Assembly: GCF_003334815.1 (NCBI RefSeq)
Contig: NZ_QOWO01000015.1
Direction: 5' to 3' (one strand)
DNA from: Escherichia coli
Lineage (GTDB): Bacteria > Pseudomonadota > Gammaproteobacteria > Enterobacterales > Enterobacteriaceae
DNA: 64,000 bases
The notes under the pieces are model-generated. The model ran no database searches, was not told the DNA's origin, and saw nothing but the letters and a program-made list of their open reading frames with translations. The translations under genes were made by a program, and so were the position numbers. Within the stretch, counting starts at the first letter, position 1; each line of letters starts with the position of its first letter. Shown here piece by piece: positions 4,430 to 55,406 of this stretch.

Positions 4430-5125
4430 ATGTCCATTGCGGTAACCACCACCGATCCGACAAATACCGGCGTCAGTACCACCAGCAGTAGTTCGCTCAC
4501 GGGCAGCAACGCCGCAGATTTACAAAGCAGTTTTCTGACTTTGCTGGTGGCGCAGCTGAAAAACCAGGACCCGACCAATCCAATGGAAAACAACGAGCTG
4601 ACGTCGCAATTGGCACAAATCAGCACGGTCAGCGGGATTGAAAAACTCAATACCACGCTCGGATCTATTTCCGGACAGATTGATAACAGCCAGTCGTTAC
4701 AGGCCAGTAACCTGATCGGTCACGGCGTGATGATCCCCGGCACCACTGTTCTTGCGGGAACCGGCAGTGAAGAAGGGGCTGTGACCACGACCACGCCGTT
4801 TGGTGTTGAGCTGCAACAGGCGGCAGACAAAGTTACGGCCACCATCACCGATAAAAATGGCGCGGTTGTGCGCACCATTGATATTGGTGAACTGACCGCC
4901 GGAGTTCACAGTTTCACCTGGGACGGTACGTTGACTGATGGCAGCACTGCGCCGAACGGTTCTTACAATGTAGCGATTAGCGCCAGTAACGGTGGTACAC
5001 AACTGGTTGCCCAGCCGCTGCAGTTTGCTCTGGTGCAGGGTGTGATCCGCGGCAACAGCGGTAATACGCTGGATCTCGGCACTTACGGCACCACCACCCT
5101 CGACGAAGTACGGCAGATAATTTAA
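4430..5125 (+). CDS. flgD: Flagellar hook capping/assembly protein FlgD, 231 aa
   Basis: 231-aa Thr/Ser-rich ORF with NQDPTNPMENNELTSQLAQISTVSGIEKL motif. Confidence 0.95.
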   Translation: MSIAVTTTDPTNTGVSTTSSSSLTGSNAADLQSSFLTLLVAQLKNQDPTNPMENNELTSQLAQISTVSGIEKLNTTLGSISGQIDNSQSLQASNLIGHGVMIPGTTVLAGTGSEEGAVTTTTPFGVELQQAADKVTATITDKNGAVVRTIDIGELTAGVHSFTWDGTLTDGSTAPNGSYNVAISASNGGTQLVAQPLQFALVQGVIRGNSGNTLDLGTYGTTTLDEVRQII

Positions 5126-5149
5126 GCCTTCACATTTCAGGAGTCAGTC

Positions 5150-6358
5150 ATGGCCTTTTCTCAAGCGGTTAGCGGATTAAACGCTGCCGCCACCAACCTC
5201 GATGTTATTGGCAACAATATCGCCAACTCCGCCACCTACGGCTTTAAATCAGGCACGGCCTCTTTTGCCGATATGTTTGCCGGTTCGAAAGTGGGACTGG
5301 GGGTAAAAGTTGCCGGTATCACTCAGGACTTTACCGATGGCACGACCACCAACACCGGGCGAGGTCTGGACGTTGCTATCAGCCAGAACGGTTTTTTCCG
5401 TCTGGTAGACAGCAACGGTTCGGTGTTCTACAGCCGTAACGGACAATTTAAGCTGGATGAAAACCGTAACCTGGTGAATATGCAAGGTTTACAGCTGACG
5501 GGTTACCCGGCAACCGGTACGCCGCCGACTATTCAGCAAGGGGCGAATCCGACCAATATTTCGATCCCGAATACCCTGATGGCAGCGAAAACTACCACCA
5601 CGGCATCGATGCAGATCAACCTGAATTCCAGTGATCCGCTTCCTACTGTTACGCCATTCAGCGCCAGCAATGCGGATAGCTATAACAAAAAAGGTTCGGT
5701 GACTGTTTTCGACAGTCAGGGTAATGCTCATGACATGAGCGTCTACTTTGTGAAGACCGGGGATAATAACTGGCAGGTCTACACCCAGGATAGCAGTGAT
5801 CCAAACAGCATTGCGAAGACAGCGACAACACTGGAATTTAATGCTAATGGCACATTAGTGGATGGTGCGATGGCGAATAATATCGCAACCGGCGCAATTA
5901 ACGGTGCAGAACCCGCCACGTTTAGTCTGAGCTTCCTCAACTCCATGCAGCAAAATACCGGCGCTAACAATATTGTGGCAACCACCCAGAACGGCTACAA
6001 ACCGGGCGATCTGGTGAGTTATCAAATCAATGATGACGGTACGGTTGTCGGCAACTATTCCAACGAACAAACCCAACTGCTGGGGCAGATTGTACTGGCG
6101 AACTTTGCCAACAACGAAGGTCTGGCATCCGAAGGCGACAACGTCTGGTCTGCGACGCAATCTTCTGGCGTGGCGCTGTTGGGGACAGCCGGGACGGGAA
6201 ACTTTGGCACCCTGACCAACGGTGCGCTGGAAGCGTCCAACGTCGATCTCAGTAAAGAACTGGTCAATATGATCGTTGCCCAGCGTAACTATCAGTCTAA
6301 CGCCCAGACCATCAAAACCCAGGACCAGATCCTCAACACGCTGGTTAACTTACGCTAA
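5150..6358 (+). CDS. flgE: Flagellar hook protein FlgE, 402 aa
   Basis: 402-aa ORF with conserved rod/hook N-terminus (ANNIANSATYGFK) and C-terminus (VNMIVAQRNYQSNAQTIKTQDQILNTLVNLR). Confidence 0.95.
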   Translation: MAFSQAVSGLNAAATNLDVIGNNIANSATYGFKSGTASFADMFAGSKVGLGVKVAGITQDFTDGTTTNTGRGLDVAISQNGFFRLVDSNGSVFYSRNGQFKLDENRNLVNMQGLQLTGYPATGTPPTIQQGANPTNISIPNTLMAAKTTTTASMQINLNSSDPLPTVTPFSASNADSYNKKGSVTVFDSQGNAHDMSVYFVKTGDNNWQVYTQDSSDPNSIAKTATTLEFNANGTLVDGAMANNIATGAINGAEPATFSLSFLNSMQQNTGANNIVATTQNGYKPGDLVSYQINDDGTVVGNYSNEQTQLLGQIVLANFANNEGLASEGDNVWSATQSSGVALLGTAGTGNFGTLTNGALEASNVDLSKELVNMIVAQRNYQSNAQTIKTQDQILNTLVNLR

Positions 6359-6377
6359 TCGCTGACGGGATAGCTCA

Positions 6378-7133
6378 ATGGATCACGCAATTTATACCGC
6401 GATGGGAGCAGCCAGCCAGACACTGAATCAACAGGCGGTAACCGCCAGTAATCTGGCCAATGCCTCAACGCCCGGTTTTCGCGCGCAGTTGAATGCTTTA
6501 CGCGCGGTGCCAGTGGAAGGGCTTTCTCTGCCCACGCGCACGTTGGTCACGGCGTCAACGCCGGGCGCAGATATGACGCCCGGCAAAATGGATTACACCT
6601 CGCGCCCGCTGGACGTCGCGTTGCAGCAGGATGGCTGGCTGGCCGTGCAGACCGCTGACGGCAGCGAAGGGTATACGCGTAATGGCAGCATTCAGGTTGA
6701 TCCCACCGGGCAACTGACAATTCAGGGGCATCCGGTGATAGGCGAGGCTGGGCCAATTGCTGTGCCGGAAGGGGCGGAAATCACTATTGCTGCCGATGGC
6801 ACAATCTCGGCGCTCAATCCGGGCGATCCGGCAAATACGGTTGCGCCAGTAGGGCGTCTTAAACTGGTGAAAGCCACGGGCAGCGAAGTGCAGCGCGGTG
6901 ACGACGGCATTTTTCGTTTAAGCGCAGAAACCCAGGCCACGCGTGGGCCGGTACTGCAGGCAGATCCAACCTTGCGTGTGATGTCGGGGGTTCTGGAAGG
7001 CAGTAACGTCAATGCCGTTGCGGCAATGAGCGACATGATTGCCAGCGCGCGGCGTTTTGAAATGCAGATGAAGGTGATCAGCAGCGTCGATGATAACGCA
7101 GGCCGTGCCAACCAACTGCTGTCGATGAGTTAA
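6378..7133 (+). CDS. flgF: Flagellar proximal rod protein FlgF, 251 aa
   Basis: 251-aa ORF MDHAIYTAMGAASQTLNQQAVTASNLANASTPGFRAQ. Confidence 0.95.
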   Translation: MDHAIYTAMGAASQTLNQQAVTASNLANASTPGFRAQLNALRAVPVEGLSLPTRTLVTASTPGADMTPGKMDYTSRPLDVALQQDGWLAVQTADGSEGYTRNGSIQVDPTGQLTIQGHPVIGEAGPIAVPEGAEITIAADGTISALNPGDPANTVAPVGRLKLVKATGSEVQRGDDGIFRLSAETQATRGPVLQADPTLRVMSGVLEGSNVNAVAAMSDMIASARRFEMQMKVISSVDDNAGRANQLLSMS

Positions 7134-7159
7134 TTGAAAGGATACATGACAAGTATAAG

Positions 7160-7262
<103 letters not shown>

Positions 7263-52096: not shown

Positions 52097-52936
52097 ATGC
52101 TGTCGCGTCGGGGTCATCGGTTAAGTCGTTTTCGTAAAAATAAACGCCGCCTGCGCGAGCGTTTGCGTCAGCGTATTTTTTTCAGAGATAAAGTGGTGCC
52201 GGAAGCAATGGAAAAACCAAGAGTACTCGTACTGACAGGGGCAGGAATTTCTGCGGAATCAGGTATTCGTACCTTTCGCGCCGCAGATGGCCTGTGGGAA
52301 GAACATCGGGTTGAAGATGTGGCAACGCCGGAAGGTTTCGATCGCGATCCTGAACTGGTGCAAGCGTTTTATAACGCCCGTCGTCGACAGCTGCAGCAGC
52401 CAGAAATTCAGCCTAACGCCGCGCATCTTGCGCTGGCTAAACTGCAAGACGCCCTCGGCGATCGCTTTTTGCTGGTGACGCAGAATATCGACAACCTGCA
52501 TGAACGCGCAGGTAATACCAATGTGATTCATATGCATGGGGAACTGCTGAAAGTGCGTTGTTCACAAAGTGGTCAGGTTCTCGACTGGACAGGAGACGTT
52601 ACCCCAGAAGATAAATGCCATTGTTGCCAGTTTCCGGCACCCTTGCGCCCGCACGTAGTGTGGTTTGGCGAAATGCCACTCGGCATGGATGAAATTTATA
52701 TGGCGTTGTCGATGGCCGATATTTTCATTGCCATTGGCACATCCGGGCATGTTTATCCGGCGGCTGGGTTTGTTCACGAAGCGAAACTGCATGGCGCGCA
52801 CACCGTGGAACTGAATCTTGAACCGAGTCAGGTTGGTAATGAATTTGCCGAGAAATATTACGGCCCGGCAAGCCAGGTGGTGCCTGAGTTTGTTGAAAAG
52901 TTGCTGAAGGGATTAAAAGCGGGAAGCATTGCCTGA
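52097..52936 (+). CDS. cobB: NAD-dependent protein deacylase CobB (sirtuin), long form 279 aa; internal ATG at 52208 gives the short form
   Basis: 279-aa ORF with Arg/Lys-rich N-terminal extension ([37 protein letters not shown]) preceding [24 protein letters not shown]. Confidence 0.9.
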
Positions 52937-53026
52937 TGCACTACGCTTATCAGGCCTGCAAGGGGACGCAATTAATTGAATTTGCGGGTTTTGTGGGCCG
53001 GATAAGGCGTTCGCGCCCCATCCGGC
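52931..53026. repeat. REP pair (BIME) between cobB and ycfZ
   Basis: GCCTGATGCACTACGCTTATCAGGC and GGGCCGGATAAGGCGTTCGCGCCCCATCCGGC. Confidence 0.8.
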
Positions 53027-53055
53027 ATAATACACGCGCACTTTTCCGGCCTCTT

Positions 53056-53844
53056 TTATCGTTTACTCGTCAATAACAATGCGGCAATAAACGTACAGAC
53101 ACCAATTAGCCCTGCCCAGAGTGGCGATATTCTGGTAATCGCAAAGCTATTATCGATATACAAACATAAAGCCTGATAACCCATATTGGCAATAGTCATC
53201 GCCACTGCAAATTTTAACGCATAAATAAAACGAGTCGTGTAGTAAAAGATCCTGGAAAATAAGATAAACGTCGCAGCCCAGGCGATAAAACCTAATGTGT
53301 TGGTGCTGCCGGGGGGAGCATTTTCATGCTGTTGTCCTGGATGCGGATAATACGTTAGTGGCGGCGTCGATTGTTTTAATATCTGTGCTTGTAGAACAGC
53401 CAATGCATTATTGATTCCCTGATACCAGAGATCTGCATTTAAATAAGCCAGCGTGTGATTTTCTATCAGAAGGCCGAGATGTTTATCGTCCAGACCACTT
53501 TCAACCTGGCCGTTGGTGATCATAATTAACCGTGGTTCGCGGGTAGTAAATAGTAACAGAACACTTCCTTTTACATCACTCAATGAAGATGACGCATGCG
53601 CCAGCATCGCTTTACCATTTTGTCTGAGACTGGCTTCATTATTAATGTCGGGTAAAACCACAATAAACGGTGCAATTCCCGTTTGTTGGCGAAAAAGCTC
53701 GGCTTTATGCGCGATCTCTTCAGCATCTGGTACAGTACCGGTAACGTCCGTAAAAAGTGTCTTCATTATTGGAATTAATGGCTTGCTGGCTGCTGTCAGA
53801 GGCAGGAGTATCAGTAAACTGAGCAGTATAATGAATTTTTTCAT
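53056..53844 (-). CDS. ycfZ: Inner-membrane protein YcfZ, 262 aa
   Basis: 262-aa ORF with signal/TM start [22 protein letters not shown] and C-terminal hydrophobic segments. Confidence 0.85.
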
Positions 53845-54302
53845 GGGCGGGACTTCCGTTTCCTGCGTGATTTTTTAGAGGAGGGCATACTTATTAATAA
53901 ACCGACGGCGATAAAAATAACGCCCATAATGCCGATAAACCCCCATTTAAAAAAATTAACCCACGGGTTATTTATCTCAGCCTTTTCAGGATGCCCGGGA
54001 GAATAATAAACATTAACTTTATCGCCTTCGCTGTCTTCATAAAAATCGCTGCCGATACTCGAATTGAAAATTAGCGTGTAATCTGGCGTCGGTCGAAAGG
54101 CAACGACGGGATACCACGAACCATCTTTACCCGTGCGATGAGAATGACTGGAGTGCCAGACGGTATCAACAATGACGCCTTCGGTATGAATCGCGTCTTT
54201 GCTATAGGTGAACTGGTTATAAAAGACAACAACAGAAATGAGGATCAGTACCAGACCGATACCGAGGAATATACGAAAGAAAACTTTACTGTCCTGACTC
54301 AT
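53841..54302 (-). CDS. ymfA: Inner-membrane protein YmfA, 153 aa
   Basis: ORF-track frame 53841..54311; ATG at 54302 gives [28 protein letters not shown]; ATGA overlap with ycfZ. Confidence 0.85.
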
Positions 54303-54320
54303 TAGCCACATCCTTGCTAA

Positions 54321-54350
54321 CTAAAAAACGGGCGGTAATACCACCGCCCG
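54321..54350 (-). terminator. potABCD Rho-independent terminator
   Basis: Minus strand reads CGGGCGGTGGTATTACCGCCCG followed by TTTTTT, directly after the potD stop. Confidence 0.8.
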
Positions 54351-54359
54351 CTTGCTGAA

Positions 54360-55406
54360 TTAACGTCCTGCTTTCAGCTTCTGATAATACTCTTCATAAA
54401 TGCTGCTGGCTGCGCCAACGTCATTCTGCCATTCGCCATTTTTAATGGTTTCAGCATCCGGGTAGAGTGTTTTATCGTTCGCCACTTCTGGACTTAACAG
54501 CTTACGCGCCGCAAGGTTTGGCGTTGGATAACCGATAGTTTCAGCAACCTGTTTTGCCACATCCGGGCGCAGCAGGAAGTTGATCAATTTCAGCGCGCCT
54601 TCTTTGTTTTTGGCATTTGCCGGGATCGCCAGGCTGTCCATCCAGAAAATGCCGCCTTCTTTCGGCCACACCACGTCAATTGGCGTACCCGCCTGGCGTG
54701 CAACGAAAGCAGAACCGTTCCAGATCATGCCGAGGTTAACTTCGCCTTCCATGTACGGGTTCGCCGGGTTATCGGAGTTAAAGGCTGCCACGTTTGGCAT
54801 CAGTTTTTTCAGCTCGTTATATGCAGCTTCAATCTCTTTCGGATCGGTGGTGTTACCGGAGTAGCCCAGCTTACGCAGCGCCATCTGGAACACTTCACGG
54901 GCATCGTCGGTCAACAGCAGGCTGCCTTTGTACTCTGGCTTCCACAGATCGGCCCAGCTGGTGACAGATTTCGGATCCACCGCATCACCGTTAACACCAA
55001 TCGCCGTCGCACCCCAGATATACGGAATGGAGTAGTCGTTATTCGGGTCAAAAGGCTTGTTGAGCATGTCTGGATCGAGATTGCTGAAGTTTGTTAACTT
55101 CGACTTGTCGATCTTCTGGATCATCCCTTCTTTACGCATTTTATCAACGTAATAGGTTGAAGGAACCACCAGATCATAGGCACCGTCTTTGTATGTTTTC
55201 AGCTTGGCGTACATGGTTTCGTTCGACTCGTAAGTCGAATAGATAACCTTAATACCGGTTTCTTTGGTGAACTGTTCAAGCAGTCCTGGCGGCACGTACT
55301 CGGTCCAGTTGTAGAAATACAGCGTGTTGTTGTCATCGGCGTGAGCGGCGCTCATGCCCAGTGCCAGAGCACCCGCCGCGAGCAGGTGGCGTGACCATTT
55401 TTTCAT
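54360..55406 (-). CDS. potD: Spermidine/putrescine periplasmic binding protein PotD, 348 aa
   Basis: 348-aa ORF with signal peptide MKKWSRHLLAAGALALGMSAAHA. Confidence 0.95.
   Translation of the reverse strand: MKKWSRHLLAAGALALGMSAAHADDNNTLYFYNWTEYVPPGLLEQFTKETGIKVIYSTYESNETMYAKLKTYKDGAYDLVVPSTYYVDKMRKEGMIQKIDKSKLTNFSNLDPDMLNKPFDPNNDYSIPYIWGATAIGVNGDAVDPKSVTSWADLWKPEYKGSLLLTDDAREVFQMALRKLGYSGNTTDPKEIEAAYNELKKLMPNVAAFNSDNPANPYMEGEVNLGMIWNGSAFVARQAGTPIDVVWPKEGGIFWMDSLAIPANAKNKEGALKLINFLLRPDVAKQVAETIGYPTPNLAARKLLSPEVANDKTLYPDAETIKNGEWQNDVGAASSIYEEYYQKLKAGR

What the first reader, a model, noticed from the sequence alone, without database searches (positions are those of the whole stretch)
53056..54302. 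ycfZ-ymfA: AT-richer two-gene membrane module of unknown function
Two overlapping (ATGA) minus-strand genes encode a 153-aa protein with one N-terminal TM helix (YmfA) and a 262-aa protein with a signal peptide and C-terminal TM segments (YcfZ). By eye the DNA is clearly AT-richer (runs such as AAAAAAATTAACCC, TTATTAATAAACC) than the flanking cobB and potD; I did not compute GC content. The pair is flanked by a REP cluster on one side and the pot terminator on the other, the signature of a compact, possibly acquired, accessory module.
Basis: partly seen in the sequence, partly recalled or inferred. Interest (0 to 1): 0.4.

Follow-up and report, generated by a model that had tools for sequence, protein, structure and literature searches.

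The report
Fast-evolving ymfA-ycfZ inner-membrane gene pair
This is the annotated but uncharacterised E. coli gene pair ymfA-ycfZ: two coupled inner-membrane proteins that are AT-rich, evolve unusually fast, come in two very different versions within E. coli and are often deleted, but they are long-term residents of this site rather than a recent import.

Summary
ycfZ (53056-53844) and ymfA (53841-54302) overlap by ATGA on the minus strand. They are the two lowest-GC genes of 56 in the window (0.426 and 0.435, against a mean of 0.522), and sit between a REP cluster and the potD terminator.

YcfZ has a signal peptide, a divergent periplasmic TPM domain and three C-terminal TM helices. YmfA is a DUF3592 protein with a small beta domain between two TM helices, not one.

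"Acquired accessory module" is only partly right. The same pair sits between potD and cobB in Klebsiella (43-53% identity) and Entomohabitans (28-33%), where PotD is 88-91% identical. Salmonella has nothing there. About 11% of 5,426 complete E. coli genomes lack the pair, through at least three independent deletions that leave remnants. No mobility genes, phage or true plasmid copies were found.

The unexpected result is that E. coli ymfA exists as two discrete haplogroups at about 78% nucleotide identity. Their dS is 0.89, above the potD divergence between E. coli and E. albertii, yet the beta core is strongly constrained (dN/dS 0.03).

The likeliest function is inferred, not shown: a non-catalytic, periplasm-facing membrane complex that helps assemble or stabilise another envelope complex.

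These are known genes, and the finding is of moderate interest.

The parts
53841..54302 (-). ymfA CDS, 153 aa, DUF3592 inner-membrane protein
   Evidence: ORF. Pfam PF12158 at residues 40-112, E 1.6e-6. AF2 model shows TM, five beta strands, TM. Foldseek AFDB50 top hits are all DUF3592 proteins, TM-score 0.7-0.77.
53056..53844 (-). ycfZ CDS, 262 aa, divergent TPM-domain inner-membrane protein
   Evidence: ORF. Pfam PF04536 at residues 41-152, E 2e-6. hhalign to a canonical LemA-linked TPM protein gives probability 94.8%. The AF2 model matches solved TPM domains 7tbr, 5anp, 3ptj and 8c7i.
53841..53844 (-). ATGA overlap: ymfA stop (TGA) overlaps ycfZ start (ATG), implying translational coupling
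   Evidence: Read from the sequence. The same 4-nt overlap occurs in Klebsiella L008 (6456-6459) and Entomohabitans L018 (5001-5004).
54311..54315 (-). Shine-Dalgarno-like AAGGA, 8 nt upstream of the ymfA ATG at 54302
   Evidence: Read directly from the sequence.
54326..54353 (-). Intrinsic terminator of potABCD. It ends about 23 nt before the ymfA start codon, leaving no room for a separate promoter.
   Evidence: 12-bp stem with 7 GC pairs, then a T-run. No sigma-70-like match lies upstream of ymfA on the minus strand within 54303-54800.
52937..53051 (.). REP/BIME-like palindrome cluster between the convergent cobB and ycfZ
   Evidence: Inverted repeats. REP 15-mer enriched in the window, 5 matches against 0.17 expected. 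Sub-threshold naRNA4 (REP-derived) Rfam match at 52996-53033.
53380..53754 (-). Region encoding the YcfZ TPM alpha/beta domain (residues about 31-155), predicted periplasmic
   Evidence: AF2 secondary structure, pLDDT 81-90. Foldseek PDB match to 7tbr with target TM-score 0.81.
53062..53298 (-). Region encoding the three C-terminal TM helices of YcfZ (residues 183-261). This is the most variable part among E. coli alleles.
   Evidence: AF2 helices at 183-198, 205-230 and 241-261. The 53199-53299 window is only 74% identical in ST131. dN is 0.095 here against 0.019 in the TPM domain.
53967..54194 (-). Region encoding the YmfA beta domain (residues about 37-112). The core, residues 61-118, is strongly constrained.
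   Evidence: AF2 strands at 38-51, 61-72, 75-80, 95-101 and 104-110. dN/dS is 0.03 with dS 1.10 between haplogroups. Invariant motif P-x-x-A-F-R.
53700..54300 (.). Block that differs by about 22% (ymfA) between the two E. coli haplogroups. Its boundary at the ymfA start is sharp.
   Evidence: 100-bp identity profile against L002. Census of 5,426 genomes: 3,372 at >=95% identity, 1,472 at 60-80%, only 4 between.

Best explanation
ymfA-ycfZ is a real, translationally coupled two-gene unit encoding two inner-membrane proteins.

YmfA has a TM helix, a five-stranded DUF3592 beta domain, a second TM helix and a basic cytoplasmic tail. YcfZ has a signal peptide, a divergent TPM alpha/beta domain, a Pro-rich linker and three TM helices.

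Both soluble domains are predicted to face the periplasm (inferred). I propose that the two proteins form a non-catalytic heteromeric membrane complex. By analogy with other TPM proteins, this complex would act as a chaperone-like or scaffolding accessory for another membrane or envelope complex. YmfA would take the place that LemA occupies in canonical LemA-TPM pairs (inferred).

In evolutionary terms the pair is an old resident of the potD-cobB gap in Enterobacteriaceae. It evolves five- to six-fold faster than its neighbours and is dispensable, having been deleted at least three times within E. coli and being absent from Salmonella. It carries deeply diverged, recombining alleles.

Its low GC most likely reflects weak selection, low expression and imported alleles, not recent foreign origin.

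Expression in E. coli probably depends on read-through of the potD terminator or on a promoter inside potD (inferred).
For: Identity and architecture:
- Pfam TPM and DUF3592 matches.
- hhalign of the YcfZ family to a LemA-linked TPM protein, probability 94.8%.
- AF2 models and fold matches.
- Hydropathy and charge distribution.

Coupling and pairing:
- The ATGA overlap is conserved in three genera.
- The pair co-occurs in all four lineages found.
- In the O157/O145 and N96 deletion types both genes are lost together.

Non-catalytic accessory role:
- The solved structural neighbours include auxiliary or assembly subunits of membrane complexes: Psb32 and TLP18.3 of PSII, and the chain J subunit of the mycobacterial CIII2CIV2 supercomplex (6adq_J, 8hcr_J).
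- Comparative-genomic papers argue that TPM is a chaperone-like assembly domain and not a phosphatase (PMC11237479, PMC12419801).
- A DUF3592 protein is predicted to be a cofactor of the membrane glycosyltransferase MptB (bioRxiv 10.64898/2026.07.15.738315).
- The nearest outgroup of YcfZ is a LemA-TPM pair with the same order and overlap.

Functional constraint:
- dN/dS is 0.03 in the YmfA beta core despite dS of 1.1.
- The genes are intact in about 89% of genomes.

Old residency and fast evolution:
- Syntenic orthologues in Klebsiella and Entomohabitans.
- The GC deficit shrinks and tracks the host genome in those lineages.

Dispensability:
- Three deletion types, IS1 insertions and absence from Salmonella.

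Promoter:
- The terminator ends 23 nt before the ATG, and no sigma-70-like site was found upstream.
Against: - No experiment bears on function. The literature holds only incidental mentions in screens and tables.
- Complex formation, periplasmic topology and the client complex are all inferred. No multimer model could be run.
- The AF2 models are of moderate confidence (mean pLDDT 72 and 74) and come from 9-sequence alignments.
- The canonical GYGLE loop of TPM domains reads NGQVE in YcfZ, so even TPM-like behaviour may differ.
- Some TPM proteins were reported to have phosphatase or ATPase activity.
- The very deep allelic split (dS 0.89) and the repeated loss are not predicted by a plain housekeeping accessory role.
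- One related pair (L021) lies outside the pot-cobB context, so mobility cannot be excluded.
Confidence: 0.5

Rival explanations
1. Horizontally acquired islet. The pair entered the potD-cobB gap from an AT-rich donor, possibly more than once, through recombination in the conserved flanks. It is an accessory island in the classical sense.
For: - It is the lowest-GC segment of the window, with an atypical ycfZ codon score.
- Its distribution is very narrow and patchy: 5 loci among about 100,000 species representatives, and 45 phmmer hits among 1.84 billion proteins.
- It is absent from Salmonella.
- The pot locus is a known insertion hot spot, with a prophage at potB/potC in E. coli and a Sif-family gene in Salmonella.
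- A related pair sits in a non-pot context at GC 0.40.
- E. coli alleles are more diverged than the species' flanking genes, so imports of at least allelic segments do occur.
Against: - Position, order and overlap are the same in three genera, at 28-53% identity, so any acquisition predates those lineages.
- GC partly tracks each host genome.
- The E. coli empty sites are deletions with remnants.
- No mobility genes or repeat boundaries were found. There are no true phage or plasmid copies.
Confidence: 0.15
2. Conflict locus. YmfA-YcfZ is either exploited as an inner-membrane entry factor by a phage, colicin or contact-dependent toxin, or acts as an exclusion or immunity determinant. Antagonistic selection would then maintain the two haplogroups and favour loss.
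For: - There are two discrete ymfA haplogroups: 3,372 and 1,472 genomes, with only 4 intermediates.
- Their dS is 0.89, which exceeds the E. coli-E. albertii potD dS of 0.48. Allele relationships cut across species.
- Recombinant alleles exist, for example P0078.
- Loss has been independent and repeated.
- Variation is concentrated in the TM helices and a juxtamembrane loop, with dN/dS up to 0.53.
- A ycfZ mutation was seen once among phage-resistant APEC mutants (PMC12057083).
- DUF3592 TM proteins are encoded in some T7SS LXG toxin clusters (PMC12482557).
Against: - No PADLOC or PHROG match.
- dN/dS is below 1 everywhere. Most TM changes are conservative I/V/L swaps.
- The haplogroup pattern can be explained by one or a few introgressions.
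- The phage-mutant observation is a single uncharacterised hit.
Confidence: 0.15
3. Periplasmic enzyme. YcfZ is a membrane-anchored TPM phosphatase or nucleotidase, and YmfA is its membrane partner or regulator.
For: The Pfam family is named TPM_phosphatase. The structural neighbours BA41, BA42 and AtTLP18.3 were reported with phosphatase or ATPase/ADPase activity (reference 90 cited in PMC11237479).
Against: - Recent analyses consider phosphatase activity unlikely for the family.
- YcfZ lacks the canonical GYGLE loop.
- Few polar residues of the TPM domain are invariant across the four lineages.
Confidence: 0.1
4. Functionless, decaying remnant genes kept only by drift.
For: - Low GC and a poor ycfZ codon score.
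- Frequent deletion, IS insertion and truncated database entries.
- dN/dS is about ten-fold higher than in the neighbours.
Against: - The ORFs are intact in about 89% of 5,426 genomes and in three genera.
- dN/dS is 0.03 in the YmfA core at saturating dS.
- The overlap and gene order are conserved.
Confidence: 0.05

Closest known systems
LemA-TPM (YgcG-type) membrane gene pairs
   Same: An upstream small membrane-anchored protein is followed, with overlapping stop and start, by a secreted or membrane-anchored TPM-domain protein. The nearest non-orthologous relative of YcfZ (P0167, 25% identity) is such a pair.
   Different: The partner here is a DUF3592 beta-domain protein, not the LemA protein (a different Pfam family, PF04011). 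YcfZ has three C-terminal TM helices and no Ser/Gly-rich tail. The canonical GYGLE loop reads NGQVE.
Psb32 / AtTLP18.3 (TPM-domain auxiliary factors of photosystem II)
   Same: Same TPM fold (Foldseek probability 1.0 to 3ptj and 8c7i). The domain is extracytoplasmic (lumen corresponds to periplasm). Both are non-essential accessory factors.
   Different: Sequence identity is 11-13%. The client complex (PSII) does not exist in E. coli. They have no DUF3592 partner and a single TM anchor.
Subunit of the mycobacterial CIII2CIV2 respiratory supercomplex that matched the YcfZ model (6adq_J, 8hcr_J)
   Same: The fold matches at lower significance, E about 0.1 with probability 0.99. It illustrates this fold as a structural accessory of a membrane complex.
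   Different: The match is weak. The organism and complex are different. Nothing links YcfZ to respiration.
B. subtilis YdjH-type TPM proteins in PspA operons
   Same: A membrane-associated TPM protein proposed to be chaperone-like in the assembly of membrane complexes under envelope stress (PMC11237479). Those contexts repeatedly include polyamine genes, and ymfA-ycfZ sits directly behind the polyamine transporter operon.
   Different: There is no PspA, band-7 or zinc-ribbon neighbour here. The adjacency to pot may simply reflect inherited synteny.
DUF3592 proteins such as mycobacterial ML2271
   Same: Same family and same TM-beta-TM architecture. ML2271 is predicted to be a cofactor of a polytopic membrane enzyme.
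   Different: The predicted partner there is a glycosyltransferase (MptB), not a TPM protein. That link is predicted by AI only. ML2271 is essential, whereas ymfA is dispensable.

Membership tests
TPM domain (Pfam PF04536, TLP18.3/Psb32/MOLO-1) | Significant match to the family profile | tested here: met
   PF04536 at residues 41-152, E 2.1e-6, covering model positions 13-123 of 125. hhalign of the YcfZ family against a canonical TPM protein gives probability 94.8%, E 5e-8. The match is weak: many E. coli and Klebsiella variants have no or only 'weak' precomputed Pfam hits.
TPM domain (Pfam PF04536, TLP18.3/Psb32/MOLO-1) | TPM alpha/beta sandwich fold | tested here: met
   The AF2 model has pLDDT 81-90 over residues 31-155. 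Foldseek against PDB: 7tbr E 4.6e-5 with target TM-score 0.81; 5anp, 3ptj, 2kw7 and 8c7i all at probability 1.0.
TPM domain (Pfam PF04536, TLP18.3/Psb32/MOLO-1) | Extracytoplasmic location via a signal peptide and/or TM anchor | tested here: inconclusive
   There is an N-terminal hydrophobic signal-like helix at residues 1-22 ending in TAA|SK, three C-terminal helices and a C-terminal KR. This is a sequence-based prediction only.
TPM domain (Pfam PF04536, TLP18.3/Psb32/MOLO-1) | Phosphatase or nucleotidase activity (claimed for some members) | not testable with these tools
   Needs biochemistry. The literature disputes it.
DUF3592 (Pfam PF12158) | Significant match to the family profile | tested here: met
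   PF12158 at residues 40-112, E 1.6e-6, covering model positions 1-81 of 84.
DUF3592 (Pfam PF12158) | Architecture of TM helix, small beta domain, TM helix | tested here: met
   AF2 model: helix 2-35, five strands, helix 113-137. Foldseek AFDB50 gives more than 1,500 hits at E <= 1e-3, and the top 50 are all annotated as DUF3592 or YmfA, with TM-scores up to 0.77.
Genomic island (recent horizontal acquisition) | Composition atypical for the host | tested here: met
   GC z-scores of -4.1 and -3.7, and the lowest-GC stretch of the window.
Genomic island (recent horizontal acquisition) | Mobility genes, a tRNA or att site, or direct-repeat boundaries | tested here: not met
   Only REP palindromes and a terminator flank the pair. 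No integrase or transposase lies in the gap. A prophage att site exists, but about 1.9 kb away at potB/potC.
Genomic island (recent horizontal acquisition) | Clean empty site in close relatives, and no diverged orthologue at the same site in distant relatives | tested here: not met
   The E. coli empty sites retain remnants of ymfA or ycfZ. Diverged orthologues occupy the same site in Klebsiella and Entomohabitans. Salmonella does have a clean gap.
Known anti-phage defence systems (PADLOC) | Match to a defence-system protein model | tested here: not met
   No PADLOC family matches either protein at E <= 0.1. There is no meaningful PHROG match.

The most novel reading that the evidence does not exclude
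The two ancient ymfA haplogroups are older than the E. coli-E. albertii split when measured against the flanking-gene clock. Together with the mosaic ycfZ alleles and the recurrent clean deletions, they may be maintained by balancing or negative frequency-dependent selection. This would happen if the YmfA-YcfZ complex is an inner-membrane entry factor, or an exclusion factor, for a phage, bacteriocin or contact-dependent toxin. That would make the pair a previously unrecognised conflict locus embedded between housekeeping operons.
Probability: 0.15. Interest if true: 0.6.

Novelty: already known. Interest (0 to 1): 0.33.

Why it matters
ymfA and ycfZ are among the remaining function-unknown genes of E. 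coli K-12. This analysis does not assign a function, but it narrows the problem.

- The pair is a coupled, periplasm-facing TPM/DUF3592 module and not a recent island.
- It is under real constraint in the YmfA beta core.
- Natural knock-outs (O157:H7, O145:H28) and two natural allelic forms are ready for comparison.

If the haplogroup dimorphism reflects selection by phages or toxins, it would expose a new inner-membrane target or exclusion factor. If not, the pair is a useful example of how a low-expression membrane module can look 'foreign' through fast evolution alone. That is a caution for composition-based island calling.

Tried and rejected
- Sequence search of PDB for both proteins: nothing meaningful.
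- NCBIfam, PADLOC and PHROGs: no families.
- Viral-contig scan: no relatives. The two GenBank 'phage' hits at 100% identity are a prophage at potB/potC deposited together with its host flank, not phage genes.
- 'Plasmid' hits are mislabelled chromosomes or megabase replicons.
- Literature searches. 'ycfZ/ymfA' gave only incidental table entries. 'b1121/b1122' returned only reference-number noise.
- Promoter scans found no sigma-70-like site upstream of ymfA in E. coli or Klebsiella, so the promoter question is open.
- The third word-indexed protein search, with the family alignment, was swamped by E. coli variants. It added only the species name for P0158.
- The idea that the extra small ORFs next to ycfZ in Klebsiella and Entomohabitans are a conserved third gene was not supported: 23% identity and no Pfam match.
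Full report
**What is there**

The window is an E. coli K-12-type segment with the gene order lolE-nagK-cobB, then ycfZ and ymfA, then potDCBA.

- ycfZ is at 53056-53844 and ymfA at 53841-54302, both on the minus strand.
- The ymfA stop codon overlaps the ycfZ start codon as ATGA.
- An AAGGA sequence lies 8 nt upstream of the ATG at 54302. This supports the 153-aa form of YmfA.

- Sliding-window GC is 0.435-0.448 across the pair, against 0.51-0.54 in the flanks.
- ycfZ (GC 0.426, GC3 0.399) and ymfA (GC 0.435) are the two lowest-GC genes of 56 in the window, with z = -4.1 and -3.7.
- The pair is the only 1,247-bp stretch of the 64 kb with GC at or below 0.45.
- ycfZ has the lowest codon-adaptation score measured against the window's own codon usage. 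ymfA is not among the eight lowest.

The flanks are as described.

- A REP/BIME-like palindrome cluster lies at 52937-53051.
- The potABCD intrinsic terminator lies at 54353-54326.
- The terminator ends only about 23 nt before the ymfA start codon.
- No sigma-70-like site lies upstream of ymfA.
- Expression therefore probably needs terminator read-through or a promoter inside potD. This is an inference.

**The proteins**

YcfZ:
- It matches the TPM domain weakly but specifically: PF04536, E 2e-6.
- hhalign to a canonical LemA-linked TPM protein gives probability 94.8%.
- Its AF2 model (mean pLDDT 74; 81-90 in the domain) shows a signal helix, an alpha/beta domain at residues 31-155, a disordered Pro-rich linker and three C-terminal TM helices.
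- The best solved-structure matches are all TPM domains: 7tbr, BA41, AtTLP18.3, PG_0361 and Psb32. More weakly it matches chain J of the mycobacterial CIII2CIV2 supercomplex.

YmfA:
- It matches DUF3592: PF12158, E 1.6e-6.
- Its model (mean pLDDT 72) has a TM helix, a five-stranded beta domain and a second TM helix, followed by a [11 protein letters not shown] tail.
- Foldseek against AFDB50 returns only DUF3592 proteins with the same architecture, with TM-scores up to 0.77.

By the positive-inside rule, both soluble domains should face the periplasm. This is inferred, not tested.

**Is it an acquired module?**

Evidence that favours acquisition:
- A word-indexed search of 5.8 billion proteins found YcfZ only in Escherichia and Shigella.
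- An exhaustive phmmer search of 1.84 billion cluster representatives found only 45 hits. Apart from Escherichia fragments, these reduce to four other types.
- A pattern scan of about 100,000 species-representative genomes found YmfA in E. coli, E. whittamii, E. albertii and Klebsiella spallanzanii only.
- In Salmonella, potD abuts cobB with 81 bp between them and no trace of the pair.

Evidence against recent acquisition:
- In Klebsiella michiganensis the same two genes lie between potD and cobB, in the same order and with the same 4-nt overlap. YmfA is 53% identical and YcfZ 43%, while PotD is 91% and CobB 86%.
- In Entomohabitans teleogrylli the same arrangement occurs at 33% and 28% identity, with PotD at 88%.
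- The GC deficit is smaller there and follows each host's GC.
- There are no mobility genes or repeat boundaries.
- No real phage or plasmid copies exist. The two 'phage' records are a prophage at potB/potC deposited with its host flank.

One further pair (52% and 44% identity) sits on a short metagenomic contig that is not next to potD. Occasional relocation therefore cannot be excluded.

The simplest reading is that the pair is an old resident of this gap, evolves several-fold faster than its neighbours, and has been lost in many lineages.

**Within E. coli**

Presence and loss:
- Of 5,426 complete genomes, 4,826-4,835 carry each gene essentially full length. About 11% do not.
- The empty sites are secondary deletions with three different breakpoints:
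  - O157:H7 and O145:H28 lack 52968-54259 and keep the first 44 nt of ymfA.
  - Strain N96 lacks 53078-54300 and keeps the last 23 nt of ycfZ.
  - Strain E69 lacks ycfZ only (53070-53831).
- IS1 insertions also occur.

The most striking result is allelic.
- ymfA falls into two discrete classes: 3,372 genomes at >=95% identity to K-12, 1,472 at 60-80% (about 78%), and only 4 in between.
- The control gene potD is >=95% identical in all genomes that carry it.
- Between the two ymfA haplogroups, dS is 0.89. This exceeds the potD dS between E. coli and E. albertii (0.48).
- The divergent haplogroup is closer to the E. albertii allele (dS 0.30). The K-12 type is nearly identical to that of E. whittamii (dS 0.07).
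- The divergent block ends sharply at the ymfA start codon and fades inside the 5' end of ycfZ.
- Recombinant alleles exist.
- ycfZ itself shows a graded series of alleles down to about 89% identity. The worst window is in its first TM helix.

Selection is purifying but uneven.
- dN/dS is 0.03 in the YmfA beta core (residues 61-118) at saturating dS.
- It is 0.24-0.53 in the TM helices and the loop at residues 37-60.
- Overall it is 0.17-0.23, against 0-0.05 in potD, potC and nagK.
- The genes are therefore functional, not decaying. The alleles are either ancient polymorphisms or introgressions from other Escherichia lineages.

**Mechanism**

No experimental study of function was found. The genes appear only in tables of screens.

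I commit to the following model, with the steps marked as shown or inferred.

Shown:
- There are two membrane proteins, with TPM and DUF3592 domains.
- Their genes are translationally coupled.
- The pairing is conserved in four lineages.
- The YmfA core is constrained.

Inferred:
- Both domains are periplasmic.
- The proteins form a heteromeric complex.
- The complex is non-catalytic and helps assemble or stabilise another membrane or envelope complex.

The support for the inferred role is indirect.
- Structural neighbours of YcfZ include auxiliary subunits of membrane complexes.
- Recent comparative analyses argue that TPM domains are chaperone-like assembly factors and not phosphatases (PMC11237479, PMC12419801).
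- A DUF3592 protein is predicted to be a cofactor of a membrane glycosyltransferase.
- The nearest outgroup of YcfZ is a LemA-TPM pair with the same gene order. YmfA therefore appears to occupy the LemA position.

The client complex is unknown. The persistent position behind the polyamine transporter operon is suggestive, but it may be only inherited synteny.

**Rivals**

- Ancient or repeated horizontal acquisition: 0.15.
- A conflict locus (entry factor or exclusion determinant for phages or toxins) that would explain the haplogroups and the losses: 0.15.
- A periplasmic phosphatase: 0.10.
- Functionless remnants: 0.05.

PADLOC and PHROGs give no support to a defence role, and dN/dS never exceeds 1. 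The conflict reading is nevertheless not excluded, and it is the most novel option.

**Verdict**

- These are already-annotated genes belonging to known domain families.
- The added value here is fourfold: the corrected architecture of YmfA, the evidence for long residency at this site with rapid evolution, the three independent deletions, and the two deep ymfA haplogroups.
- Interest is moderate to low.

Noticed in passing
L001 8106-9462; L005, L006 and L007 at about 5100-7250; L022 2125-3481: Many E. coli strains (O145, O111, O157 and a canine UTI isolate) carry a lambdoid prophage whose integrase and excisionase sit directly beside potC, on the potB side, about 1.9 kb from ymfA. Two GenBank 'phage' records (ON470619, ON470612) are this prophage plus host flank, including ymfA-ycfZ. 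Specialised transduction from this site could promote allele exchange at ymfA-ycfZ.
   Followed up: partly
L023 2867-3880 and 6047-6129 (Salmonella enterica): In Salmonella a Sif-family gene (PF06767) is inserted between potB and potC. potD abuts cobB with an 81-bp gap that contains only a REP-like sequence. The pot locus is therefore a repeated insertion and deletion hot spot in different genera.
   Followed up: partly
window 52915-52936; L001 5925-5965: The cobB 3' end is polymorphic. In the K-12-type sequence the ORF runs 18 nt further and its stop codon (GCCTGA) lies inside the first REP element. Other strains stop earlier, at GGATTATAA.
   Followed up: no
L008 7311-7628; L018 5728-6081 and 6552-6863: Klebsiella and Entomohabitans have one or two extra small hydrophobic ORFs (103-117 aa) between ycfZ and cobB, where E. 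coli has REP elements. They share only 23% identity and have no Pfam match. It is unclear whether they are real genes.
   Followed up: partly
L021 1769-3918: A metagenomic contig carries a DUF3592-TPM pair (52% and 44% identical to YmfA and YcfZ, GC 0.40, genes not overlapping) that is not next to potD. It lies downstream of a fragment resembling the T6SS protein TssL. The organism is unknown.
   Followed up: partly
L017 6299-10317 (Klebsiella spallanzanii): Downstream of ycfZ this species has a different set of genes (ORFs of 364, 187, 279 and 267 aa) in place of cobB within the 4 kb available. This suggests a further insertion or rearrangement at the same gap.
   Followed up: no
window 53841-54302 (ymfA); literature PMC8788219: A pangenome study lists YmfA as an 'ALT-ALT out-of-frame remodelled' gene family present in 359 of its E. 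coli genomes. The two deep haplogroups, and the frameshifted or fused database entries seen here (for example P0013 and P0073), may underlie that call.
   Followed up: no
window 53513-53878 (+): A 121-aa ORF lies antisense to ycfZ and across the ycfZ/ymfA junction. There is no evidence that it is a gene, and it is probably a by-product of the AT-rich antisense strand.
   Followed up: no
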